From a virus (taxonomy: Duplodnaviria; Caudoviricetes), in the IMG/VR virus record IMGVR_UViG_3300002026_000124, positions 1 through 64,000 of that record: a DNA stretch of 64,000 bases; one strand, 5' to 3'. Every line of letters begins with the position of its first letter. Positions within the stretch are counted from its first letter, which is position 1. A program made the position numbers and the translations under genes. A model generated the notes under the pieces. That model was not told the origin of the DNA. It saw nothing but the letters and a program-made list of their open reading frames with translations, and searched no databases. Positions 24,650-63,448 of this stretch are shown in pieces.

Positions 24650-24743
24650 CAGGAAGTGAGCGAGAGGTTGAAGCTACTGGTCTTGGAAACCAGTCACGGC
24701 ACAAAGGCGTTGTCGTGCGTGGGTTCGAACCCCACCTTCCTGA
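24650..24743 (+). tRNA. tRNA-Pro(TGG) with 25-nt variable arm
   Basis: Acceptor caggaag/cttcctg, A73, stem ctggt/accag, loop CTTGGAA. Confidence 0.75.
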
Positions 24744-24813
24744 CATGTGGACTGGTTAGAATTTACATACAAGGTCGTCCGTAATTGGAAATGATGCGTA
24801 GGAAATTCAACAT

Positions 24814-25219: not shown

Positions 25220-25300
25220 TATCCTTTGGCAGAATGGTCATTGCATCGCCCTTTGAAGGCGACACCGAGAGGTTTGCAGGTTCGAGTCCTGCAGGGATAA
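25220..25300 (+). tRNA. tRNA-Gln(TTG) with long variable arm
   Basis: Stem tcgcc/ggcga, loop CTTTGAA, extra arm caccgagaggttt. Confidence 0.8.
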
Positions 25301-25417
25301 CAAAAAGTTTTTGGAAATCTTGTATTTATTATTATCTTTGCATAAATATTGCTGGTATAATAACACGTTGTTATAGAATAGTACACGATGCATACTATCG
25401 CCAACATTTTTTAATAT

Positions 25418-25503: not shown

Positions 25504-25653
25504 ATGGGAAAATTAAGAGTTGGAAACAAGGAAAATTCTTTACTTAATGGTGAATGGGCAGGTCATGTTAGAAAAGATGGTAAGGAATGGACTGCAAGAA
25601 AACGCAGAAACCTTGACAAAGAAATAATTAAAAAGGAAAGCAATGAGTTATAA
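25504..25653 (+). CDS. Small basic hypothetical protein (49 aa)
   Basis: Hand-translated MGKLRVGNKENSLLNGEWAGHVRK...; overlaps the next start. Confidence 0.45.
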   Translation: MGKLRVGNKENSLLNGEWAGHVRKDGKEWTARKRRNLDKEIIKKESNEL

Positions 25654-26065
25654 TTTATTCTTAGATGACTACAGATTTCCAAAGGAAACTGTTGATTACA
25701 TGTTTATTCCAATCTACACTAGTGAAGAATGGATAATCGTCAGGAATTACTATGCCTTTATTACAATAATTCAAAAGAAAGGTCTTCCGGATATCATTTC
25801 TTTCGACCACGACCTTGCAGATGTTCATTATAAGAATCAGGTTTTCGATTATAATGATGAAACCCTGGAAAAAACCGGATATCATTGTGCAAAATGGCTC
25901 ATTGACTATTGTCTCGATAATAATTTAGAAGTTCCCACAAGAATATTAATACATTCAATGAATCCTTACGGGACACAGAATATCAAATCAGTTTTCGAAA
26001 CCTACTTCAAGGTTTATGGTAAAGAATATAGTCCAATTAGCATTACCCCAAGCATGCGTAGATAA
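25643..26065 (+). CDS. Cyclic-phosphate-processing receiver-like domain protein
   Basis: LFLDD.R.P, ISFDHDL, KTGY..AKWL and IHSMNP.G motifs. Confidence 0.65.
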   Translation: MSYNLFLDDYRFPKETVDYMFIPIYTSEEWIIVRNYYAFITIIQKKGLPDIISFDHDLADVHYKNQVFDYNDETLEKTGYHCAKWLIDYCLDNNLEVPTRILIHSMNPYGTQNIKSVFETYFKVYGKEYSPISITPSMRR

Positions 26066-26155: not shown

Positions 26156-27325
26156 ATGAAAAAAGATAGTAAAGTAAGACTTTTCGAAGTCATGGGCAGA
26201 TTAGACAAAACGTTTAAACCAGTTCTTAACGAATGGAATTTCGATAAGAAAAAAGATGACGATTCCGATGATAAAGAGGAAAAAGAAGAAAAGGACGAAA
26301 AACCAAAAGGTAAAACACAGTTTAATTTTGATAAAAAAGAAGATAAAGAAACTGAGAAACATGAAGATTCTGAAACTCCTGAAGAATTGAAAGAAGAAGA
26401 TGCGCCAAAAGCTAAGATACCTGTTAATGCAATTGCAAAAGTAGGTGGAAAAATTAATGAGTCTTTGCCTGTAGATGAAAAATATAATAAATGGGGTCAA
26501 TCTCAAGATGCTTGGGCAGATATTGAAAATGGTAAACCCTCAATTGGAAAAGAATTACAGAAAAAAGTAAATCTTGATAAAAAGGGCGAACTTGGTAGCG
26601 GAAGTGGTGATTCTCACGTACCCGAATATTATTACTCATATGATTCAGATGACCCAATTTCAAACGTTAATGGCTATACCCAACGTCAAATTGATGCTAA
26701 AAATCAACAGTGGAGAGATAATATGTCACGCAATATGAGAGGGTCAATGGGTGATGAAGATGGTATGTATGAAAATAAAAAGATTAAATTGGAAAAGAGT
26801 AAAGTAAGACTTTTCGAAGTTATGCAAAGAGTAACACCAAATTTTACTGGTAAAGCATTAAATGAAAGAGACGAAGAATTTTGGGCACAAGAAAAAAATG
26901 CAGGTGATGGTAATGCATATTCAAACACTAATCGTTATGAAACCGAAAATGGTCAAATGATTCCAGTTAATAAATATGATGAATTTGAACACGGTAAAAT
27001 TTTGGGAACATATGATAGTAATGGTAATAAAATTGGAGACCCGAATTTACCTAAATCAATAATAGAACCTAAAAAAGAACCAACACCAGATGAAATAACA
27101 CAAACTAATGACGATAGTGTGAAAATTACTAGCGCCCTAATTCAAAATGGTTTCTTTAATTCAAGTGGTAGTAGTGATAAATTCGTTAAACCGTATGACC
27201 AAGGACCGAATTGGCATGGCTGGAGTGAAATGGATAAATTTTTAAAGGATGGTGCTCAAAAGGGTTTGTGGTCAGAAGAGAGTGCTAGAAAATATAGCGA
27301 AAACGTGTGGCGTTCATACGATTAA
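26156..27325 (+). CDS. Charged low-complexity protein with two LFE-type motifs (internal head protein candidate)
   Basis: SKVRLFEVM occurs twice; GTATTTAT at 26118. Confidence 0.6.
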   Translation: MKKDSKVRLFEVMGRLDKTFKPVLNEWNFDKKKDDDSDDKEEKEEKDEKPKGKTQFNFDKKEDKETEKHEDSETPEELKEEDAPKAKIPVNAIAKVGGKINESLPVDEKYNKWGQSQDAWADIENGKPSIGKELQKKVNLDKKGELGSGSGDSHVPEYYYSYDSDDPISNVNGYTQRQIDAKNQQWRDNMSRNMRGSMGDEDGMYENKKIKLEKSKVRLFEVMQRVTPNFTGKALNERDEEFWAQEKNAGDGNAYSNTNRYETENGQMIPVNKYDEFEHGKILGTYDSNGNKIGDPNLPKSIIEPKKEPTPDEITQTNDDSVKITSALIQNGFFNSSGSSDKFVKPYDQGPNWHGWSEMDKFLKDGAQKGLWSEESARKYSENVWRSYD

Positions 27326-27365
27326 AATAAAAAAATAAAAATATTTTAATTTTTTTTCGAAAAAG

Positions 27366-27396
27366 TTTGTATTTATCAAAAATGTCTCTATCTTTG
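27366..27396 (+). promoter_or_regulatory. Bacteroidota sigma-A-type promoter of tRNA operon 2
   Basis: TTTG (27366-69), N19, TATCTTTG (27389-96). Confidence 0.8.
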
Positions 27397-27428
27397 CAGA
27401 GAATTTAATTAGTGAAAACAATAAAGTT

Positions 27429-27542
27429 ATGAAAAATTTACTCAACATATTATCAGTAGTCCTAGTGGATGCGCTCTTATGGGCAGCGGATGAGGATATG
27501 GTATATCGTGTCGGGTCGAAAGATACTGGAGTAGGTTATTAA
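27429..27542 (+). CDS. Attenuator leader peptide 2, MKNLLNILSVVLVDALLWAADEDMVYRVGSKDTGVGY
   Basis: Hand translation; 17 of residues 8-25 are L/V/D/A/W/E/M, matching the downstream tRNAs. Confidence 0.85.
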   Translation: MKNLLNILSVVLVDALLWAADEDMVYRVGSKDTGVGY

Positions 27543-27562
27543 TAACTGAAACAATAAAAACG

Positions 27563-27592
27563 AAACCCGACCCGAAAGAGTCGGGTTTTTTT
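27563..27592 (+). terminator. Attenuator terminator 2
   Basis: aaacccgac/gtcgggttt stem, GAAA loop, T-run; leader 27511-27518 is complementary to 27568-27575. Confidence 0.85.
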
Positions 27593-27618
27593 ATTGTTCT
27601 TTGACATGTTGGAAATTT

Positions 27619-27689
27619 GGTCTATTAGGGTATGGGTATCCTTGGTGGTTGTCGCCCACCAGAATCGAGTTCGAGTCTCGAATAGACCG
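27619..27689 (+). tRNA. tRNA-Asp(GTC)
   Basis: Stem ggtgg/ccacc, loop TTGTCGC, G73. Confidence 0.85.
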
Positions 27690-27838
27690 CTAAACATTTG
27701 ATTGTCGGGTTATTACTCAGAGGGTTTTAACTTACGAAGATAGACGTGTTAGTATAATAAGTACACTTGCCTTAAATAAGTAGGAAGTTGTAACATGAAA
27801 AGGTTATCACACGTAACAAGAACGTCAAATGTTTTTAA

Positions 27839-27910
27839 CGGGGTCGTAGTTTAATGGTTAGAATACCGCACTGTCTATGCGGGGAAGGGGTTCGAATCCC
27901 ACGGCTTCGG
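27839..27910 (+). tRNA. tRNA-Asp(GTC), weak T-stem
   Basis: Stem ccgca/tgcgg, loop CTGTCTA, G73; only 3 bp in the T-stem. Confidence 0.7.
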
Positions 27911-27924
27911 CAAAATTTAAATTT

Positions 27925-28044
27925 ATGAAAAAGAATAAGTCGTCCGAAAATACCGGACAGTTAAAATCAAAAGTTTGCTTTAAAGTAATTTCTAAAGAGG
28001 AATTAAAGAAAAACAGAAGTAATGCATATGATTACTTAATTTAA
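27925..28044 (+). CDS. Small basic ORF (39 aa)
   Basis: Hand translation MKKNKSSENTGQ...YDYLI. Confidence 0.35.
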   Translation: MKKNKSSENTGQLKSKVCFKVISKEELKKNRSNAYDYLI

Positions 28045-28167
28045 TCTACCGATAATCTACCGTTATAACAGTAAAAAGTGCAATATGTTGCACAATCTAC
28101 CGATAATCTACCGATAATCTACCGATAATTACCGTTATAACAGTAAAAAGTGCAATATGGTGCACAA
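28043..28167. repeat. Compound tandem repeat (11-mer aatctaccgat plus duplicated palindrome-containing unit)
   Basis: 11-mer repeated 1x then 3x; taccgttataacagtaaaaagtgcaatatgNtgcacaa present twice. Confidence 0.85.
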
Positions 28168-28171
28168 AAAC

Positions 28172-28255
28172 GCAGCATTATACAAGCGGTCAAAGTAGCA
28201 AGTCCTTCAAACTTGCATCTTCGGATTTCGAGGGGTTCGAATCCCCCATGCTGTA
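28172..28255 (+). tRNA. Class II-type tRNA, anticodon TTC (Glu) by geometry, C33
   Basis: Acceptor gcagcat/atgctgt, stem caagt/acttg, loop CCTTCAA, variable hairpin atc-ttcg-gat. Confidence 0.65.
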
Positions 28256-28306
28256 CCTTGACTTTTCTGTACCATAGGACTATTTATAATAAAATATTAT
28301 ACTCCT

Positions 28307-28951
28307 ATGGCACGAAAAGAAAAAAAATATCACTTTATTTATAAAACAATAAACATCATAAATAATAAGTTTTATATTGGTATGCATTCAACAGACAATT
28401 TGAATGATGGATATGTTGGTAGCGGAACAAGACTTTGGTATTCAATAAATAAATATGGTAGGGAAAATCATAGATTGGAAATACTTGAATTTCATGAAAC
28501 ACGAATTATATTAAAAGAACGTGAAAAGAATTTAGTAAATGAGGATTTATTGAAAAATCCTATGTGCATGAACATAAAGATTGGTGGTGAAGGTGGATTA
28601 AATGGTCTTTCACAAGAATCAATTAAAAAAATACGTAAGGGTGCATCTGATTTCATGAAAATGAAGTGGAATGAACCAGAATTTAGAAATATGTGTTCTC
28701 AACGTTCTATAATTAAAATGAAAGAAAATCATAGACTTGGTAAAATGAGATATGATACGTTTATTGGTAAATCTCATAGTGAAGAAACAAGAGAACTTAT
28801 GAAAGTAGTTCATAAGGGAATGGGTATTGGTTCTACAAATTCTCAATTCGGTACTTGTTGGATAACTAAGTGTGGCGTAAATAAAAAAATTAATAATAAT
28901 GATTTGTCCTTATATATTAGTGATGGTTGGTGTAAGGGTAGAGTCATATAA
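28307..28951 (+). mobile_element. Free-standing GIY-YIG homing endonuclease (Seg-like) in the tRNA array
   Basis: FIYKTIN...KFYIGMHST...Y.GSG; NUMOD3-like GKSHSEETR. Confidence 0.85.
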
Positions 28952-28952
28952 T

Positions 28953-29024
28953 GGTCCGTTCGTCTAACGGTTAGGACGGCAGGTTTTCATCCTGTTAATA
29001 GGGTTTCGATTACCCTACGGACTA
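28953..29024 (+). tRNA. tRNA-Glu(TTC)
   Basis: Stem gcagg/cctgt, loop TTTTCAT. Confidence 0.9.
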
Positions 29025-29031
29025 CTAAAAT

Positions 29032-29104
29032 TGCGTGTTGTGGAAGTTGGCTCTCCGGACAGAATCATAATCTGTAGACACTGGTTCAAATCCAGTACAC
29101 GCAA
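29032..29104 (+). tRNA. tRNA-CAT (Met or Ile2)
   Basis: Stem acaga/tctgt, loop ATCATAA. Confidence 0.8.
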
Positions 29105-29111
29105 CAATATT

Positions 29112-29186
29112 GCTCTCTTAACTCAGTTGGTTCAGAGTGTCACGCTTACAACGTGAAGGTCGGGGGTTCGACTCCCTCAGAGAGCA
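29112..29186 (+). tRNA. tRNA-Val(TAC)
   Basis: Stem tcacg/cgtga, loop CTTACAA. Confidence 0.92.
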
Positions 29187-29303
29187 CAAATGCCGTAAGT
29201 CTGGATAAAATTCCTTAAAGGGAAACTGGAGTAGCGAATAACTTAAAGCGAAGTGGTTTCGTGATAGACGGTTGTGATGAAAAGTTAGTCACTCATTAGT
29301 CGC

Positions 29304-29379
29304 AGGGTAGAATGGTGTAAGAATGGGAGCACGTTTGCGATAAGCAAAAAGACGAAAGGTTCGAATCCGAAATACCCCT
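29304..29379 (+). pseudogene. Degenerate tRNA-like sequence
   Basis: GGTTCGAATCC present but T-stem is 2 bp; anticodon loop lacks U33. Confidence 0.45.
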
Positions 29380-29383
29380 TAAT

Positions 29384-29458
29384 AGTCCCTTAGTTTAGTT
29401 GGTAAAAACGTCTGGCTTACATCCAGAAGATGCACTGGTTCGAATCCAGTAGGGACTA
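29384..29458 (+). tRNA. tRNA-Val(TAC)
   Basis: Stem tctgg/ccaga, loop CTTACAT. Confidence 0.9.
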
Positions 29459-29468
29459 CTTTTGACAT

Positions 29469-29534
29469 ACGGTTTAGGACCGTTATAGCTTCGGCTATAA
29501 AGGGGGTGGGATGTTCGCTACTGACCACCCCTTT
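29469..29534 (+). ncRNA. Compact three-hairpin element
   Basis: acggt/accgt, tatagc-UUCG-gctata and a 10-bp aagggggtgg/ccaccccttt stem. Confidence 0.45.
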
Positions 29535-29653
29535 ACAAAAAACGTTTAATTTTGCATAGTTATTCTTATTAATTTAAACTATCTGTGCAAATTTTATCGG
29601 TTGTAGAGGCGATAAGCATAGTTTATCGGTTGTAGAGACGATAAAATTTAAAT

Positions 29654-29735
29654 ACGGGTATAGTCCAACGGTAGGACGCTCTCTGTCCAAGGGGAGAAAT
29701 AGGCTGCAGTCAGGGTTCAATTCCCCTTACCCGTG
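29654..29735 (+). tRNA. tRNA-Asp(GTC)-like with aberrant anticodon arm and long variable region
   Basis: Acceptor acgggta/tacccgt, G73, D-stem gtcc/ggac, CTGTC present, loop irregular. Confidence 0.5.
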
Positions 29736-29795
29736 CAAAAAATAATTATTATCCTTGTATTATATATTAACTGCATATACTAAGATAATAAATAT

Positions 29796-29877
29796 CTCGC
29801 AGTGTCGTAATTGGTAGCCGGGACAGTCTAAGAAGCTGTTGCCTTCGGGTGTGTGGGTTCGAGTCCCACTTGCGAGA
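29796..29877 (+). tRNA. tRNA-Leu(AAG)
   Basis: Stem acagt/gctgt, loop CTAAGAA, long variable arm, A73. Confidence 0.8.
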
Positions 29878-29884
29878 CGAATAT

Positions 29885-29939
29885 GGGGATGTGATGAAAT
29901 TGGCGATACATGCCAGACTTAGAATCTGGCGCTAATAAA
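29885..29939 (+). pseudogene. 5' two-thirds of tRNA-Leu(TAG), truncated in the variable arm
   Basis: GGGGATG..D-arm..ccaga CTTAGAA tctgg, then no T-arm. Confidence 0.7.
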
Positions 29940-29952
29940 CTGGCTTCACTTT

Positions 29953-30029
29953 GGGGCAGTAGTGACAATTGGCTAACACGACAGATTTGCACTCTGTAAA
30001 TGGGGTATCATACATCCCCTGCTCCACCA
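29953..30029 (+). tRNA. tRNA-Ala(TGC) with non-canonical T-loop
   Basis: G3:U70, loop TTTGCAC, encoded CCA; T-loop ATCATAC. Confidence 0.75.
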
Positions 30030-30098
30030 CAACATTGGTTTCGAAAACCAACGTCTCCACTTTTCCAGAAAACCAAGTATTTATAATAAAGAAATATT

Positions 30099-30917
30099 GT
30101 GAATACTTGGAAAACTAATAGAAAAACAATTTTAATTAATTGTGAAAATTGTGGAAATGAATTCAAAAAAACATTATCTGAATATAATCGTTCAGAAAAA
30201 TTAAATAAAAAACATTTTTGTTCATTAAAATGTAATAATGAATCTAAAAAGATTAAACTAAAATTCTGTTTACAATGTAATGAAGAGTTTATTCCCGATA
30301 AAAATAAAACTAAGTTCTGTTCACATTCTTGTAACGCAAAATATAATAATAAAAATAGAAAGGGTATTAAATACAATATAAGTGAAAATGGTTTAATTGG
30401 ATTAAGGGAATCGTATAAAAATAATTTCGGATATGATATTATAAAATTTAGAAATAACTATTATCAATCACAGAATTATTGTAAAGAATGTAATGAACCT
30501 ATTCCATATGAAAAAAAGAATCATGTTTTTTGTAATCGGGATTGTAAAAGAACATATGATAGAAAGAATTTAACTGAATATCAAAAATACTATAAAGATT
30601 GTCAATTTAAATTTGGTTTATCAGACTATCCAAATGAATTTGATTTCGAATTGATTAAAACACATGGTTGGTATCAACCAAAAAATCATGGCAATAACTT
30701 AGGTGGAATTAGTAGAGACCATATGATTTCAGTAAAATATGGATATGAAAATAATATTAGTTCTGAGATAATTAGTCATCCTGCCAATTGTCAATTGATG
30801 ATTCATAATGAGAATATTAGTAAATATAAGAATTGTTCAATAACATTAGAAGAACTAATGATTAAAATTGATAATTGGAATGAAAAATATTCACAAATAA
30901 CAATGGGTTTAACATAG
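30099..30917 (+). mobile_element. Zn-finger/HNH-type homing endonuclease
   Basis: Repeated CxxC...FCS..C modules and C-terminal RDHMISV...HPANC...H..N..K. Confidence 0.75.
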
Positions 30918-30981
30918 TGGCGAGTGTTAACCGTAAGTCCTGCGTGGCTGGTAACGGTGGTTCGATTCCATCAGCCTGTTG
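30901..30981 (+). ncRNA. Non-canonical tRNA-like RNA
   Basis: Intact T-arm ggtgg-TTCGATT-ccatc, 7-bp D-like stem, 8-bp acceptor-like stem, no standard anticodon loop. Confidence 0.4.
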
Positions 30982-30986
30982 TTTAT

Positions 30987-31059
30987 GCCCTGTTGACGTA
31001 ATTGGCAACCGTATTGGTCTTAAAAGCCAAGTTTCTCAGTTCGAATCTGAGGCGGGGTA
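30987..31059 (+). tRNA. tRNA-Leu(TAA) with short (4-nt) variable loop
   Basis: Stem ttggt/gccaa, loop CTTAAAA, A73. Confidence 0.8.
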
Positions 31060-31095
31060 CTATTTAAAAATTTTATAGTATTTATGATAAAAACT

Positions 31096-31416
31096 ATGGA
31101 TACAAAACAAAAATTATTCGAGATGATGGGTAAACTAAATCATGATTTTAAACAATCAAAAATTGTTGAAGGGTTTGAAAATAGTAATAATCCAATTAAT
31201 TCCGAACAATTAACCCAAAAGGATGTGGCATCTAAAATTAGAAATCGAGGATATCAATATCACACAGATACTACACTTAAAACAATTGGTGTAAATGCTA
31301 TTATAGATGAAATGAAACCCAGAGATTTACAATATTTTTTGGATTTAGGGTTTGTACGTGAACCATTAGGTGATTTAGGTTCAGAATATGATTCATTAAA
31401 TTATCATTACATATAA
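31096..31416 (+). CDS. Hypothetical protein with LFE-type N-terminal motif
   Basis: MDTKQKLFEMMGKLNHDF; start at 31096, after GTATTTAT at 31078. Confidence 0.6.
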   Translation: MDTKQKLFEMMGKLNHDFKQSKIVEGFENSNNPINSEQLTQKDVASKIRNRGYQYHTDTTLKTIGVNAIIDEMKPRDLQYFLDLGFVREPLGDLGSEYDSLNYHYI

Positions 31417-31420
31417 ATCT

Positions 31421-31936
31421 ATGGACTACCATTTGAGTTTATTTATCATGTCGATTCTTGTATTTGTTTCCTATGTCGGAGCAGTATGGATTAAATTCGG
31501 TGTACAGCCATCAATAAGTGCAAGTTATGATTGTTGGAAAGGCTTATGGCAATCACTTTTCGTATTATTCTGTTGGGGATTTGCATTTCCTGCAATGGTT
31601 ATTGGTATAGAAGTAACGCCATTAATGTTTTTTGCTTGTGCTGGAATTATGTTTGTAGGTGCCGCATATGAAATAAAAATTAAATGGGTATATGAATATC
31701 ATATGGTATTTGCAATATCCGGAATTATATTTAGCCAGTTAGCAATTTACTTTGGTTATGATTTACTATGGGTTAACATAGTATCGGTTGTATTATCAGT
31801 ATTAATATTATTAGGTAAATTGTATCTTGGTTTAAAGAATCACTTCTGGTGGATAGAGTTAGTTGCCTTTGCTGCAATAGTTTATGCAATGGGAACTAAG
31901 ATTATTCCTTTCTTATATCTAACAACACTTAATTAA
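31421..31936 (+). CDS. Polytopic membrane protein
   Basis: About five hydrophobic segments. Confidence 0.65.
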   Translation: MDYHLSLFIMSILVFVSYVGAVWIKFGVQPSISASYDCWKGLWQSLFVLFCWGFAFPAMVIGIEVTPLMFFACAGIMFVGAAYEIKIKWVYEYHMVFAISGIIFSQLAIYFGYDLLWVNIVSVVLSVLILLGKLYLGLKNHFWWIELVAFAAIVYAMGTKIIPFLYLTTLN

Positions 31937-31939
31937 AAT

Positions 31940-32022
31940 TCGTTCGTGGTAGAGTGGTCGATTACATTGGTCTCCAAAACCAATAGAGAAATCTCACGTG
32001 GGTTCGAATCCTACCGAACGAG
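31940..32022 (+). tRNA. tRNA-Trp(CCA) with long variable arm
   Basis: Stem ttggt/accaa, loop CTCCAAA, G73, extra arm gag-aaat-ctc. Confidence 0.85.
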
Positions 32023-32231
32023 CATAAATAATGGTAAAAATTGCGGGTACGTACACAAGTCAAAGTTCTTTCCAACGGAACACCGACTACTACTGAGGGT
32101 AGAGATATTCCCAAGAGCAATATCAGTTAGTGTATGACCATTATTTTATAATTTTTTATAAAATTTCCAAAAATCTTTAAATTTTTATTATTTTTTATTT
32201 TTCAGATAGTATTTATCTGAAAAGTATAACT

Positions 32232-32411
32232 ATGGCAATATCAAAACAAGACAATGCTTGTAGAACGTTCATTATAAATGAAAAGGAGTACAATGTCTAT
32301 AAAGATGGGAAGCACACATTTGTTAAATCTGAGGATAAAATTGTATTTAATAGTACAAAATCTGATATAACTGTGTCTCAATGGTTAAAAAAAATAAGAA
32401 ATACTAAATAA
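32232..32411 (+). CDS. Small hypothetical protein (59 aa)
   Basis: Hand translation, after GTATTTAT at 32209. Confidence 0.5.
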   Translation: MAISKQDNACRTFIINEKEYNVYKDGKHTFVKSEDKIVFNSTKSDITVSQWLKKIRNTK

Positions 32412-32422
32412 TAAGAATTTAA

Positions 32423-34111
32423 ATGGCAATATTAGGAACAGATGTATCGGTAAGTGTAGGTGGTAATATTCGTTGGACGGGTGGTGCAACAACAAACTAT
32501 ACAGTACTTGAATTACATAGATTTTTACAAGATTTGGCTGACGATGCAGCTGCAAGTGGAAATGATTTAATTGATATTACAAGTAGTACACCATCTGAAA
32601 GGTCAACAGATAATATCATCACATTATTGGGAAGTTACAATATCGATGATACGATGGCGAAGCATCTTTATGATGGTTCTATTACGCAGAGTGGGGGTAG
32701 TACAGTATATTCTGGTTTAAAGGTGTTGGGTGCTGTAAATAACAGTGCAACTCAATTACAAGTTATTCAGAATAACGGTTTATATGATGGTGCAGCACCT
32801 TTCTGGGGAACTCAGGCAACTGGTGGTTTTAATGGTAGTGCAGCTTCCGGGGTTTTGATGCGATGTTTAATTAAATCGAGATTTGGAAATAATGATATTG
32901 ATGGTAAGCGTATTAGGGTACAGGCAAGACATTGGGGTGACACATATGATTTCTTTAACGTTACTTTGGGTCAGGGTGAAGCCGTAGCTGCTATTGGTAC
33001 AACACCTGATGCACAAAATACTACATCTAAGCCGACAGTTACTGCATATACTCATGTTGCGAACACCGAAGGTTATCAAACAATTAATTTAAATAATGGT
33101 AATGGTGCACAACCTTATTATTCTAAATGGACATATGGTGTAAATACTTCTGGTGATGGACTTAAAGGTGTTTGGGAATATATTAAAGATTTAACTGGTA
33201 CTGGTACAGCAAAAACTTTACATGGTATCAACGGTGAATTGTTTTTAGGTGTTACACATCAATATGCGTATAGTGGAGAAACTGGAACTGCATTTATTGA
33301 AGACGATGTTATTACTTGGGGTGCGGGTGCTACTGCAGGGACTGGTTTATTACTTGCATTAAATGATGCCGGAACGACTGGTACTGTATGGATGCAATTA
33401 CTAACTGGTGTTGCACCAACAAATGCGATGACAGTCAATAATGAAGCTGCTAATGGTAGTCATAAACTTAATGGGAATACTACTACAAGAACAATTCCTA
33501 AAGTATTTTTAGGTTCATATACAGGTTCACTAATTGGTGCATTTGGTATTGGTGTACTGGCTTCAAATTTACTTTCGACTGATAGTATTCAAGATTTACT
33601 TGGTGTTACTCAAATTCCACCAAACAACGTTACATTTACTGTATCTGGATTGGTAAGTGGACAGGACATGGTGTTGGTAGGACCGAAAGCTGGTGGTGAT
33701 ACATTTGACTTTGCACAATTAACATTAAATACAACATTAGCGGCTGGCTCAACAACAGTTGTTGTAACTACTGCAATTCCTTCTGATACACCTTCAAGTG
33801 GAACTATTAGGGTACTTGATAATAATGGTGTTTATATTCGTGCACCATATACATCATGGGCAGGAAGTACATTTAATTTAACCGGTACTTTTGGTAGTGC
33901 TGCAACTGCACCTAAAAATGTTTGGATATCATATATTGATAGACTTGCTGACGATACTACAGAAGCATTTACATCAATCTATAGTGCACCAAGGTCACTT
34001 TGGATTAGGGTTCGTGATGGTGGTGTGACTCCTATTAAAACATATGAATCACAAGGTACATTAGGTTCTGCTGGTGGTAGTGCAGTTGCAAGTAGAATTA
34101 CAGACCTTTAA
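32423..34111 (+). CDS. Virion structural protein (G/T/A-rich)
   Basis: 562 aa, beta-rich composition, late operon. Confidence 0.55.
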   Translation: MAILGTDVSVSVGGNIRWTGGATTNYTVLELHRFLQDLADDAAASGNDLIDITSSTPSERSTDNIITLLGSYNIDDTMAKHLYDGSITQSGGSTVYSGLKVLGAVNNSATQLQVIQNNGLYDGAAPFWGTQATGGFNGSAASGVLMRCLIKSRFGNNDIDGKRIRVQARHWGDTYDFFNVTLGQGEAVAAIGTTPDAQNTTSKPTVTAYTHVANTEGYQTINLNNGNGAQPYYSKWTYGVNTSGDGLKGVWEYIKDLTGTGTAKTLHGINGELFLGVTHQYAYSGETGTAFIEDDVITWGAGATAGTGLLLALNDAGTTGTVWMQLLTGVAPTNAMTVNNEAANGSHKLNGNTTTRTIPKVFLGSYTGSLIGAFGIGVLASNLLSTDSIQDLLGVTQIPPNNVTFTVSGLVSGQDMVLVGPKAGGDTFDFAQLTLNTTLAAGSTTVVVTTAIPSDTPSSGTIRVLDNNGVYIRAPYTSWAGSTFNLTGTFGSAATAPKNVWISYIDRLADDTTEAFTSIYSAPRSLWIRVRDGGVTPIKTYESQGTLGSAGGSAVASRITDL

Positions 34112-41348: not shown

Positions 41349-41630
41349 GGGGGCGACTTGGATTTGATTAGATGTCAGATTGGTAAAGTAAGCAAGTCTT
41401 AGTTGAATCAGACTAAGTAAAAAAGAGTGTTGAACTCGCAATGGTAGCGTAGGGAATAAACAAACCAACAAAAACTTCTGGTGAAGTAAGTTATGAATAA
41501 GTGAGTAACGAATCCCGAAGAGAAACTAAAATGTAAACTATTCTATTTTGCTTGTTTAGAAAAACGAGATAAACTTGTAGAAAACCTATTAATCACATTT
41601 AAGACGAGGGTTCGAATCCCTCCGCTTCCA
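41349..41630 (+). ncRNA. ssrA: tmRNA (short, ~282 nt)
   Basis: 5' GGGGGCGACTTGGATTTGA; 3' GAC-GAGGG-TTCGAAT-CCCTC-CGCTTCC-A; G3:U70 alanine identity. Confidence 0.85.
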
Positions 41631-41656
41631 CTTAATACATTAAAAATCAATTAGTT

Positions 41657-42732: not shown

Positions 42733-42821
42733 GGCGGGGTGGTGGAATTGGTAGACACGCTGGACTTAAAATCCAGTGGGCAGTAATGCCCGTGTGGGTT
42801 CGAGTCCCATCCCCGCTACCA
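42733..42821 (+). tRNA. tRNA-Leu(TAA)
   Basis: Canonical class II, loop CTTAAAA, encoded CCA. Confidence 0.95.
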
Positions 42822-42836
42822 AAAATTAGAAAAATT

Positions 42837-43109
42837 ATGGCGAAATTAAAAGTGCCTGTGGATGTACTGTATGAAAAATGCAGGAAAGTCATTAATCATG
42901 AAATCCGAATTGAATCTCGTGAAGAAGCAAGAGAAATTATGCTACTTACTACAGAGAAGCATCGTAATGATTTCGTCAAATATCACCAACAGGACATGGG
43001 TAATATTTGTTGCATGGTTCTTGATGCAGCAAAGCAAGACTTGGTGAAAGAAGGAAAATTAGTTCTGAAACCCGAAGATAGTTTCGGACACCCATTAACA
43101 TTTGAATAA
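42837..43109 (+). CDS. Hypothetical protein
   Basis: Start moved to ATG 42837, downstream of the tRNA. Confidence 0.5.
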   Translation: MAKLKVPVDVLYEKCRKVINHEIRIESREEAREIMLLTTEKHRNDFVKYHQQDMGNICCMVLDAAKQDLVKEGKLVLKPEDSFGHPLTFE

Positions 43110-43149
43110 TATGGCAATAATTTATTAAAAAAACTGTAAAGAAAAGACT

Positions 43150-43332
43150 ATGATAGATATTAAAGCGGGTGAAGGTTTATGCGAATATATTCGAAGGGCA
43201 AATGGTATGAAAAAAGAAATATCGCAATTAAGTGACATACCAAAAATTGTAAATAGTGATAAAATTACAATTACTGGTGGTGCTGAATTTATTGGGAAAT
43301 TTTTGAATGCGTTACCGGAAGAATATAAATAA
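43150..43332 (+). CDS. Small hypothetical protein
   Basis: 60-aa ORF. Confidence 0.4.
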   Translation: MIDIKAGEGLCEYIRRANGMKKEISQLSDIPKIVNSDKITITGGAEFIGKFLNALPEEYK

Positions 43333-43339
43333 TTTTAAA

Positions 43340-43422
43340 GTCCTTGTGATGAAATTGGTAGCACGTGATAGTTTCAAAAACTATTGCCTTCGGGCGTGAG
43401 GGTTCGAGTCCCTCCAAGGACA
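43340..43422 (+). tRNA. tRNA-Leu(CAA)
   Basis: Stem atagt/actat, loop TTCAAAA, long variable arm. Confidence 0.88.
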
Positions 43423-43446
43423 CTAATTTAATTAAAATTTAAAACG

Positions 43447-43496
43447 ATGAAAGAAAAATTTAAAGTCTTGTAGGTTGCTCTAATGCGACTACAAGA
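43447..43496 (+). promoter_or_regulatory. uORF MKEKFKVL* with hairpin covering the next initiation region
   Basis: ATG 43447 to TAG 43473; 12-bp stem 43466-43496 ends 2 nt before ATG 43499. Confidence 0.5.
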
Positions 43497-43498
43497 AA

Positions 43499-43819
43499 AT
43501 GAGAGTAAAAACTATTTCAAAGACCACTACTAATCGTGGTGTATTCAATCGTGCGTATAAAGAACTTCTTGAACGCAAAGGTAGAATCCATTGTTCACGT
43601 TGCAAATACCATAAAGGTGAAAACTATGAAGGTAAATGGTATGGAGAATATATTTATGACGATATGAATACCTGTCGTGGTAAATCAGGAACTCATACAA
43701 AGTTACCAAATTGGAAACTTGTTTCAAAACAACCAAAACAATGGATGAAAAAACCCATCAAATTTGTTGATAAACAATATGGTGGGTACAGGTACATTTA
43801 CGTTGACATCAAATGGTGA
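43499..43819 (+). CDS. Small very basic protein with CxxC
   Basis: K/R-rich 106 aa. Confidence 0.55.
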   Translation: MRVKTISKTTTNRGVFNRAYKELLERKGRIHCSRCKYHKGENYEGKWYGEYIYDDMNTCRGKSGTHTKLPNWKLVSKQPKQWMKKPIKFVDKQYGGYRYIYVDIKW

Positions 43820-43830
43820 TGTCAACACAT

Positions 43831-43902
43831 TGCGAGTTAGCTTAGTGGTAAAGCATCACCTTCATAAAGTGGAGACCGAGGGTTCGAGTCCCTCACTCGC
43901 AA
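43831..43902 (+). tRNA. tRNA-CAT (Met or Ile2)
   Basis: Acceptor tgcgagt/actcgca, loop TTCATAA, one stem mismatch. Confidence 0.8.
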
Positions 43903-43945
43903 CAAAAAACCCATCGAATTCGATGGGTTTAGATTTCCAATATGT

Positions 43946-52372: not shown

Positions 52373-52457
52373 GTATTCGTAGCAAAGTGGTTATGCTCCT
52401 GCCTTTTAAGCAGAGTGTCTAAACAACACAACGTGGGTTCGATTCCCACCGAATACA
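52373..52457 (+). tRNA. tRNA-Lys(TTT) with long variable arm
   Basis: Loop CTTTTAA, extra arm gtgt...acac. Confidence 0.8.
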
Positions 52458-52462
52458 CAAAT

Positions 52463-63335: not shown

Positions 63336-63416
63336 TGTGACGTGGATGAATGGTTTAGTCACCACGCTGATACCGTGGGTCGCAAGACAACGTGGGTTCG
63401 AGTCCCACCGTCACAA
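63336..63416 (+). tRNA. tRNA-Ile(GAT) with long variable arm
   Basis: Stem ccacg/cgtgg, loop CTGATAC, extra arm gtc-gcaa-gac. Confidence 0.82.
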
Positions 63417-63448
63417 CAAAGCAATCAAAATTTTAATCATTCACTAAT

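What the first reader, a model, noticed from the sequence alone, without database searches (positions are those of the whole stretch)
27366..32022. Attenuator 2: seven-amino-acid sensor with isoacceptor-level match
Seen: leader 27429-27542. Seventeen of residues 8-25 are L/V/D/A/W/E/M, and the downstream cluster encodes Asp, Glu, CAT, Val, Leu, Ala and Trp tRNAs. Leader Leu codons are TTA, CTC and CTA, matching the cluster's TAA, AAG and (truncated) TAG genes. TTG is absent from the leader, and tRNA-Leu(CAA) lies outside the cluster. TCGGGTCG (27511-18) is perfectly complementary to 27568-75. Inference: one ~4.4 kb transcript; whether it reaches tRNA-Trp is not shown.
Basis: partly seen in the sequence, partly recalled or inferred. 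Interest (0 to 1): 0.9.

Follow-up and report, generated by a model that had tools for sequence, protein, structure and literature searches.

The report
Leader-peptide attenuator gating phage tRNA cluster
A giant uncultured phage places a tiny translated test gene and a switchable transcription stop in front of a block of tRNA genes, and the test gene is written in the amino acids those tRNAs carry, so the phage probably makes this tRNA block when ribosomes read those codons slowly, a control I could not find described for tRNA genes.

Summary
A 37-codon ORF (27429-27542) lies between a Bacteroidota-type promoter and a strong intrinsic terminator. The terminator ends about 25 nt before the first of roughly 13 tRNA genes: Asp, Glu, CAT, Val, Leu, Ala, Trp. 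Residues 8-25 are 17/18 from that amino-acid set (a 16-residue run; 0 of 20,000 simulations). Three sister units in the same record match their own clusters, and together they cover all 20 amino acids (chi-square P=2.6e-13). Twenty distinct related metagenomic phage loci keep the same leader family, the same rare sensor codons and the terminator. They also keep an antiterminator inside the ORF, which is supported by compensatory changes, and a conserved 1:2 helix. A more distant relative that sorts its tRNAs differently has leaders rewritten to match. I read it as a trp/ilv-type ribosome-mediated attenuator that controls tRNA genes (about 0.8). No part of this has been tested experimentally. 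Sub-claims are weaker: TTG avoidance is specific to this phage, the Leu(TAG) gene is truncated, and the 4.4-kb transcript is untested. Follow-up agents of this scan reported the same kind of element on other phage DNA. I found no publication describing it.

The parts
27366..27396 (+). Promoter: -33 TTTG (27366-69), 19-nt spacer, -7 TAnnTTTG (27389-96); transcription start inferred near 27402
   Evidence: Motif scan. The stretch 27340-77 is 95% identical to the promoter region of unit 1. The same motif lies upstream of the leader in 19 of 21 relatives. Assignment to Bacteroidota sigma-A rests on the published consensus as I recall it.
27429..27542 (+). Leader ORF, 37 codons plus TAA
   Evidence: The family is conserved in frame, with gaps in multiples of three, in 20 distinct related loci.
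27439..27446 (+). Segment 1 (codons 4-6), candidate partner of segment 2 when the leader is not translated
   Evidence: RNAalifold on 12 relatives predicts an 8-bp helix between codons 4-6 and segment 2 plus the stop codon. This phage has one A.C mismatch. The helix is conserved but shows little covariation.
27450..27503 (+). Sensor codons 8-25 (Leu, Val, Asp, Ala, Trp, Glu, Met)
   Evidence: Rare codons CTA, CTC, GTC and GAG are enriched in 21 leaders.
27510..27518 (+). Segment 2: 5' strand of the antiterminator (GTCGGGT, encodes Val-Gly)
   Evidence: Pairs with the terminator's 5' arm. Six of its 10 pairs show changes on both sides across 20 sequences, 0 of 500 shuffles reach this, and slid controls are far lower.
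27562..27592 (+). Intrinsic terminator: 10-bp stem (27562-71 with 27580-89), then a T7 run (27586-92)
   Evidence: -14.8 kcal/mol; covariation.
27619..28257 (+). tRNA-Asp(GTC) 27619-27690, tRNA-Asp(GTC) 27839-27911, tRNA-Glu(TTC) 28172-28257 (86 nt, extra arm)
28307..28951 (+). Homing endonuclease gene inserted in the cluster
   Evidence: PHROG 314, E=1.7e-38; weak NUMOD3 hit
28953..29459 (+). tRNA-Glu(TTC) 28953-29025, tRNA(CAT) 29032-29105 (elongator Met or Ile2, not decided), tRNA-Val(TAC) 29112-29187 and 29384-29459
29654..30029 (+). 83-nt Asp(GTC)-like tRNA with extra arm 29654-29736; tRNA-Leu(AAG) 29796-29878; truncated Leu(TAG)-like piece about 29886-29950; tRNA-Ala(TGC) 29953-30029 (G3:U70, odd T loop)
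30099..30917 (+). HNH-endonuclease-like ORF inside the cluster
   Evidence: PHROG 1271, E=6.6e-8, and PHROG 23051, E=1.9e-30; no Pfam hit
30987..31060 (+). tRNA-Leu(TAA), 74 nt, without the long variable arm
   Evidence: Close copies exist in relatives.
31084..31936 (+). Two ORFs of unknown function (110 aa; 171 aa, hydrophobic) between Leu and Trp tRNAs
   Evidence: no Pfam or PHROG hit
31940..32023 (+). tRNA-Trp(CCA), 84 nt with extra arm; last gene of the presumed unit

Best explanation
This is a ribosome-mediated (leader-peptide) transcription attenuator of the trp/ilv type, and it controls a block of phage tRNA genes instead of biosynthetic enzymes. Host RNA polymerase starts at the Bacteroidota-type promoter and a ribosome translates the 37-codon leader. 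If charged tRNA for the Leu, Val, Asp, Ala, Trp, Glu or Met codons in codons 8-25 is scarce, the ribosome stalls there. Segment 2 (GTCGGGT, 27510-16) then stays free and pairs with the 5' arm of the terminator, and polymerase reads on into the tRNA genes. If these codons are read quickly, the ribosome runs over segment 2 to the stop codon. The terminator hairpin then forms and transcription ends at the T run, about 25 nt before the first tRNA. Without translation, segment 1 (codons 4-6) can hold segment 2, which again gives termination. Because the regulated products are the tRNAs that read the sensor codons, the simplest logic is negative feedback on tRNA supply: any one short tRNA turns on the whole block. 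Shown from sequence: the parts, their conservation, the covariation and the composition match. Inferred: translation of the leader, the stall-dependent switch, the signal, and how far the transcript extends.
For: (1) Layout. The terminator lies between the only recognisable promoter and the tRNAs, and the first tRNA starts 22-30 nt after it, so the tRNAs can only be reached by read-through.
(2) Composition. 22/36 leader residues are in the cluster's set (P=1e-3), with a 16-residue run (0/20,000).
(3) Sister units. Four units in the same record have the same build, and each leader matches its own cluster. The 4x4 table gives chi2=78.9, P=2.6e-13, and 0/200,000 permutations reach it. The four clusters together cover all 20 amino acids.
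(4) Conservation. The leader-2 family is present before Asp/Glu/Val/Leu/Ala/Trp clusters in 20 further distinct IMG/VR loci. These include five complete 325-365 kb genomes that keep the same four-unit order; in two of them unit 1 was not captured in the fetched stretch, and unit 3 is degenerate in G007.
(5) Residue order. The order of sensor residues shuffles between relatives while composition and particular rare codons stay. CTA is 21% against 7% background, CTC 16% against 3%, GAG 53% against 11%, and the common CTT, GTT and GCT are depleted. This points to selection on codons, not on a folded peptide.
(6) Antiterminator. Duplex energy is -12 to -19 kcal/mol with z<=-2.9 in 17 of 21 leaders. 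Six pairs have compensatory changes, 0/500 shuffles reach this, and slid controls are 2-4 times lower. The terminator behaves likewise.
(7) Stop codon. In 12 of 21 leaders the stop codon abuts segment 2, the canonical geometry.
(8) A conserved 1:2 helix is predicted.
(9) When the transcript is cut before the terminator's 3' arm, it folds into the antiterminator.
(10) Re-sorted relative. G001 sorts its tRNAs differently and has leaders to match. A 17-residue run of T/Y/K/Q/P/G precedes Pro, Tyr, Gln, Lys, Thr and Gly genes. An L/V/C leader without W, D or E precedes Cys, Val and Leu genes.
(11) There is a weak, sub-threshold resemblance to Rfam Trp_leader (24.7 bits, E=0.089).
Against: There is no expression or biochemical data of any kind. 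In this phage the ORF runs 23 nt past segment 2, so a terminating ribosome would block the antiterminator only by steric hindrance, not by covering it. The 8-nt complementarity is only z=-2.2 in this phage alone. Segment 1 has a mismatch here and shows little covariation. The match is not exact. Glu is not enriched as an amino acid. GTC and GCC are enriched without a directly cognate phage anticodon. TTG is not avoided in relatives. In G007, leader 4 keeps Arg and Phe codons although I found no Arg tRNA and no Phe tRNA in that cluster. One unit in G002 shows no significant match (P=0.15). Several tRNA genes of this cluster look atypical or broken. A stall cannot tell low tRNA from low charging, so the feedback reading is an inference.
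Confidence: 0.8

Rival explanations
1. The mechanism is the same, but the signal is general translation stress or amino-acid starvation of the host, or a timer that opens as host translation capacity falls during infection, and not feedback on the phage's own tRNA supply.
For: A stalled ribosome reports charged-tRNA supply and cannot tell low tRNA from low charging. The leader senses seven amino acids at once, so it acts as a broad sensor. Leader 4 of G007 keeps Arg and Phe codons although its cluster lacks those tRNAs.
Against: Each of four leaders is tuned to its own cluster, and re-sorted clusters have re-written leaders. A general stress sensor would not need that. Making more tRNA does not help when amino acids are missing.
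Confidence: 0.15
2. The ORF is an ordinary small gene, for a short hydrophobic or membrane peptide, with its own terminator. The tRNAs are made by leaky read-through or from unrecognised phage promoters, and the composition match is a coincidence.
For: Residues 4-20 are hydrophobic and the peptide family is conserved. No transcript data exist.
Against: Charged residues sit at shifting positions inside the hydrophobic stretch, and residue order is not conserved while codons are. The other three leaders are polar and still match their clusters. The ORF's 3' end covaries with the terminator arm. There is no room for a host-type promoter between terminator and first tRNA.
Confidence: 0.04
3. It is an RNA-only switch, by direct binding of tRNA or of a protein as in T-box or TRAP systems, and the ORF is not translated.
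For: Alternative helices alone could serve a riboswitch-like element.
Against: The reading frame, the ATG and the stop position are conserved with in-frame gaps. The amino-acid match only makes sense through translation. There is no T-box or other Rfam hit at or near threshold.
Confidence: 0.02

Closest known systems
Multivalent leader-peptide attenuators of enterobacterial amino-acid operons (ilvGMEDA leader for Ile/Leu/Val; thr leader for Thr/Ile)
   Same: A promoter, a short translated ORF with codons for several regulatory amino acids, mutually exclusive 1:2, 2:3 and 3:4 helices, and an intrinsic terminator just before the regulated genes. Rare codons are used as sensors, as in the leu leader (from my knowledge of these systems).
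   Different: The regulated genes are tRNAs, not enzymes. Seven amino acids are sensed by one leader. It is one of four units that together cover all 20 amino acids. It is phage-borne and has a Bacteroidota-type promoter without a Shine-Dalgarno sequence.
trp operon leader (Rfam RF00513)
   Same: Four-segment architecture, a Trp codon in the leader, and a stop codon next to segment 2 in most relatives.
   Different: Only a sub-threshold score (24.7 bits against a gathering score of 41). There is no sequence homology, and the regulated genes are different.
pheST (pheM) leader attenuator of E. coli
   Same: A leader-peptide attenuator that controls a component of the translation apparatus and not a biosynthetic pathway (from memory).
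   Different: It controls an aminoacyl-tRNA synthetase, senses one amino acid and is cellular.
T-box riboswitches
   Same: The same logic: tRNA status decides between terminator and antiterminator upstream of translation-related genes.
   Different: A T-box binds uncharged tRNA directly and is not translated. No T-box match was found here.
Phage tRNA gene clusters (e.g. T4, T5, KVP40-like phages)
   Same: Arrays of phage tRNA genes interspersed with homing endonuclease genes.
   Different: I know of no leader ORF and terminator switch for them. My literature searches found none.

Membership tests
Ribosome-mediated (leader-peptide) transcription attenuator | Promoter upstream of the leader and no separate promoter between terminator and regulated genes | tested here: met
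   TTTG-N19-TAnnTTTG at 27366-96. About 25 nt separate the T run from the first tRNA. No host-type promoter lies in 27600-32430. Phage-specific promoters cannot be excluded.
Ribosome-mediated (leader-peptide) transcription attenuator | Short ORF with a start codon, conserved in frame | tested here: met
   37 codons. The family occurs in 20 further distinct loci with in-frame gaps only. Translation itself is not shown.
Ribosome-mediated (leader-peptide) transcription attenuator | Leader enriched in codons of the amino acids linked to the regulated genes | tested here: met
   22/36, P=1e-3; run of 16, 0/20,000; four-unit table P=2.6e-13
Ribosome-mediated (leader-peptide) transcription attenuator | Intrinsic terminator between the leader and the regulated genes | tested here: met
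   10-bp stem plus T7, -14.8 kcal/mol; covariation
Ribosome-mediated (leader-peptide) transcription attenuator | Antiterminator helix that excludes the terminator, with its 5' strand in or next to the ORF | tested here: met
   27510-17 with 27564-71. Six covarying pairs, 0/500 shuffles.
Ribosome-mediated (leader-peptide) transcription attenuator | Anti-antiterminator (1:2) helix overlapping the sensor region | tested here: inconclusive
   An 8-bp helix is predicted and conserved in 12 relatives, but with almost no covariation. This phage has one mismatch.
Ribosome-mediated (leader-peptide) transcription attenuator | Stop codon placed so that a terminating ribosome masks segment 2 | tested here: inconclusive
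   Met in 12 of 21 leaders, where the stop abuts segment 2. In this phage the stop lies 23 nt downstream, so the block would be steric only.
Ribosome-mediated (leader-peptide) transcription attenuator | Read-through responds to the supply of charged cognate tRNA | not testable with these tools
   Needs reporter or in-vitro assays.
Rfam Trp_leader RF00513 | Score at or above the gathering threshold | tested here: not met
   24.7 bits against 41
T-box riboswitch | Match to the T-box covariance model (specifier loop, T-box sequence) | tested here: not met
   No hit in the gathering or E<=1 searches

The most novel reading that the evidence does not exclude
The four attenuators form a phage-encoded tRNA-pool homeostat. 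Each senses, codon by codon, a shortage of particular tRNAs, for example after host tRNA decay or cleavage by anticodon-nuclease defences. Each answers by transcribing the replacement tRNAs, so a giant phage keeps its own decoding capacity under closed-loop control, independent of the host.
Probability: 0.35. Interest if true: 0.9.

Novelty: new variant of a known kind. Interest (0 to 1): 0.8.

Why it matters
Leader-peptide attenuation is known as a control of amino-acid biosynthesis. Here the same device appears to regulate tRNA genes, so the sensed molecule and the product are the same. That would be the first product-feedback control described for tRNA supply, and the first regulatory logic proposed for the large tRNA sets of giant phages. 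It gives a directly testable answer to why and when phages express their tRNAs. It predicts that these phages respond to depletion of specific tRNAs. It also offers compact, codon-addressable switches for Bacteroidota, where few genetic parts exist.

Tried and rejected
- Cultured-phage searches. Megablast of 27000-32100 and tblastn of the 562-aa neighbour against INPHARED phages gave no match, so there is no cultured relative to lean on.
- Synteny anchor. The 562-aa protein (32423-34111) gave 31 related loci, but only one of them had tRNA clusters within 10 kb. Synteny there is not kept. The cREC_REC gene (25643-26065) worked instead.
- RNA evidence. No RNA holder is listed for the stretch.
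- Protein families. Pfam gave nothing for the ORFs inside the cluster. I first took the 562-aa protein for a capsid protein by eye and dropped that label, because it has no Pfam or PHROG hit.
- Unit 3 of G007. It keeps a terminator but no leader ORF and only a Tyr tRNA. It is degenerate and not informative.
- The Val/Ala/Glu/Asp unit of G002. It has the layout but no significant composition match (P=0.15), so I did not count it as support.
- Old papers. The papers on the E. coli tRNA-Phe genes pheU and pheV, which I wanted to check for a possible precedent, could not be opened by DOI. The pheL paper mentions a tRNA operon only in another context.
- Identity of the CAT tRNA at 29032 (Met or Ile2). 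It could not be decided from sequence.


Full report
CONTEXT. The window is the first 64 kb of a 72,175-base IMG/VR virus record. CheckV rates the record 21% complete, so the whole genome is probably above 300 kb. It is AT-rich and carries 47 tRNA genes and a tmRNA. It has no match among cultured phages. DNA runs that hold most of the stretch are microbial-mat metagenomes.

OBSERVATION.
- The ORF at 27429-27542 has 37 codons.
- Residues 8-25 are 17/18 from L/V/D/A/W/E/M.
- The Leu codons are TTA, CTC and CTA.
- TCGGGTCG (27511-18) is the exact complement of 27568-75.
- A strong intrinsic terminator follows: 10-bp stem, T7 run, -14.8 kcal/mol, at 27562-27592.
- The first tRNA starts at 27619.
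- Up to 32023 the cluster holds Asp, Glu, CAT, Val, Leu(AAG), Leu(TAA) and Trp genes, and an Ala(TGC) gene that ARAGORN misses at default settings. It also holds a truncated Leu(TAG)-like piece, a homing endonuclease gene, an HNH-like ORF and two unknown ORFs.

IS IT MORE THAN CHANCE?
- This unit alone: 22/36 residues are in the set against 12.4 expected (P=1e-3). The in-set run of 16 was reached in 0 of 20,000 simulated peptides.
- The unit is one of four with the same build on the same strand. Each has a promoter TTTG-N19-TAnnTTTG, an ORF starting Met-Lys, a terminator of the CCCGA...TCGGG type, and then tRNAs.
- The sets are P/H/Q, D/E/M/V/L/A/W, K/Y and T/C/I/S/N/F/G/R. The last was completed from the part of the record beyond the window. 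Together they cover all 20 amino acids.
- The 4x4 table of leader residues against cluster sets gives chi2=78.9, P=2.6e-13. No permutation out of 200,000 reached the observed diagonal.

RELATIVES.
- The cREC_REC gene next to unit 1 and the 389-aa gene upstream of leader 2 brought in 61 IMG/VR loci.
- I wrote a detector that looks for a terminator within 100 nt upstream of a tRNA and an ORF ending within 90 nt upstream of that terminator. It found the leader-2 family in 20 further distinct loci, always before Asp/Glu/Val/Leu/Ala/Trp clusters. It found the leader-1 family before Pro/His/Gln clusters.
- Five complete genomes of 325-365 kb keep the same four-unit order. In two of them unit 1 was not captured in the fetched stretch, and unit 3 is degenerate in G007.
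- In 19 of 21 leaders the strict promoter motif lies 23-76 nt upstream of the ATG. The first tRNA is always Asp, 30-78 nt after the terminator stem.

WHAT IS CONSERVED IN THE LEADER. Across the 21 leaders the order of L/V/A/M/D/E residues in the core shuffles, and charged residues move about inside the hydrophobic stretch. The composition and particular codons stay the same:

| Codon | Share among synonymous codons in leaders | Share in long ORFs of the same loci |
|---|---|---|
| CTA | 21% | 7% |
| CTC | 16% | 3% |
| GTC | 39% | 6% |
| GAG | 53% | 11% |
| CTT | 2% | 19% |
| GTT | 13% | 53% |
| GCT | 9% | 31% |

This is what codon-level selection gives, and it argues against a folded or membrane peptide. 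It also supports part of the isoacceptor idea, because CTC, CTA and TTA are each kept and the clusters carry the AAG, TAG and TAA genes. TTG, however, is used at the background rate (14% against 15%), so its absence here has no weight.

RNA SWITCH.
- The Val-Gly codons near the end of the ORF (GTC GGG) form the 5' strand of a helix with the terminator's 5' arm. The duplex energy is -12 to -19 kcal/mol, comparable with the terminators. It gives z<=-2.9 against shuffles in 17 of 21 leaders, and -2.2 in this phage.
- On a 20-sequence alignment, 6 of the 10 antiterminator pairs show changes on both sides. No shuffle out of 500 reached the observed covariation, and slid registers score 2-4 times lower. 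The terminator behaves the same way.
- One relative has a TCTCGACC arm, and its ORF carries GGTCGAGA and ends in different amino acids. This shows that the peptide's end follows the RNA.
- The transcript cut before the terminator's 3' arm folds into the antiterminator. The full leader folds into the terminator.
- RNAalifold on 12 relatives also predicts an 8-bp helix between codons 4-6 and segment 2 plus the stop codon. That gives the full four-segment layout of the trp leader.
- In 12 of 21 leaders the stop codon abuts segment 2. This phage and four others have a 15-23 nt extension. A terminating ribosome would then sit between segments 2 and 3 and hinder their pairing only sterically. That step is inferred.

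NATURAL EXPERIMENT.
- A more distant complete genome (G001, 360 kb) sorts its tRNAs differently. One unit has a run of 17 residues, all T/Y/K/Q/P/G, before Pro, Tyr, Gln, Lys, Thr and Gly genes.
- Another unit has a leader with the same N-terminus as leader 2, but with an L/V/C core and no W, D or E. It stands before Cys, Val and Leu genes. Asp/Glu/Ala and Trp lie elsewhere in that genome.
- Both units have a terminator and a complementary segment inside the ORF, read from the sequences printed.
- A Lys/Ser unit in G002 also matches (P=1e-3). A Val/Ala/Glu/Asp unit there does not (P=0.15).

EXTENT OF THE UNIT. Between 27600 and 32430 I found no host-type promoter and no plus-strand intrinsic terminator. 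One transcript reaching tRNA-Trp is therefore possible but not shown. No RNA data are available.

COMPARISON WITH KNOWN SYSTEMS. The device works like the multivalent ilv and thr attenuators, and it meets the defining features that can be tested in silico. It is not a member of any Rfam family: Trp_leader scores 24.7 bits against a gathering score of 41, and there is no T-box hit. Seven full-text searches found no description of leader-peptide control of tRNA genes in phages or cells. Follow-up agents of this scan reported the same kind of element in other phage genomes. The first-stage notes on this genome list the four units. I tested the claims for this genome independently.

VERDICT. The attenuator reading is well supported by comparative sequence evidence (about 0.8) but is untested experimentally. 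The feedback-on-tRNA-supply logic is the most economical reading, but it remains an inference. It is a new variant of a known mechanism, of high interest.

Noticed in passing
window 24650-24744, 25220-25301, 28172-28257, 29654-29736, 31940-32023, 52373-52458, 63336-63417; record 64905-64994, 68185-68268; also G001 (L067-L069): Many amino acids have two phage tRNA genes: one of normal length (72-76 nt) and one with an extra long variable arm (82-95 nt), although they are not class II tRNAs. Conversely, some Leu tRNAs (e.g. 30987-31060, with copies in G005, G007 and G008) are only 74-76 nt and lack the long arm. I have no explanation.
   Followed up: partly
alignment A1/A2 columns about 50-62 (e.g. 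L092:1850-1870); absent in the window: In most relatives the spacer between the leader-2 stop codon and the terminator holds ACCTCCTTTCTT. This looks like the 3' tail of 16S rRNA (an anti-Shine-Dalgarno mimic). Its role is unknown.
   Followed up: no
G005, G006, G008, G009 (end of the unit-4 clusters): A tRNA with anticodon CTA, called Pyl by ARAGORN and so a possible amber suppressor, closes the last tRNA cluster in four complete relatives. I did not look for it in the window's record beyond 70.4 kb.
   Followed up: no
window 25310-25340 (-7 motif at 25333): A second promoter-like TTTG-N19-TAnnTTTG site lies inside cluster 1, just before the last tRNA-Gln (25418). That gene may also be transcribed on its own.
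   Followed up: partly
window 41349-41633: A phage-borne tmRNA gene (Rfam 69.5 bits). It lies 1.1 kb upstream of a leaderless mini-cluster Leu(TAA), Leu(CAA), CAT (42733-43903). In relatives that mini-cluster follows cluster 2 after 2-4 kb.
   Followed up: no
window 25643-26065: A protein with a cyclic-phosphate-processing receiver domain (cREC_REC, E=5e-21) sits between tRNA cluster 1 and unit 2. It is conserved at that place in 56 related loci, which hints at RNA-repair or tRNA-end chemistry next to the tRNA genes.
   Followed up: no
window 29654-29736: An 83-nt tRNA-like gene, called Asp(GTC) with the anticodon at an unusual position, has an extra arm and a weak score (35 bits). It may be a pseudogene or have an odd anticodon loop.
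   Followed up: no
G007 region (L142/L143), unit 3: One complete relative has lost the Lys/Tyr leader ORF and the Lys tRNAs of unit 3 but keeps the terminator and one Tyr tRNA. This looks like a decaying unit.
   Followed up: partly
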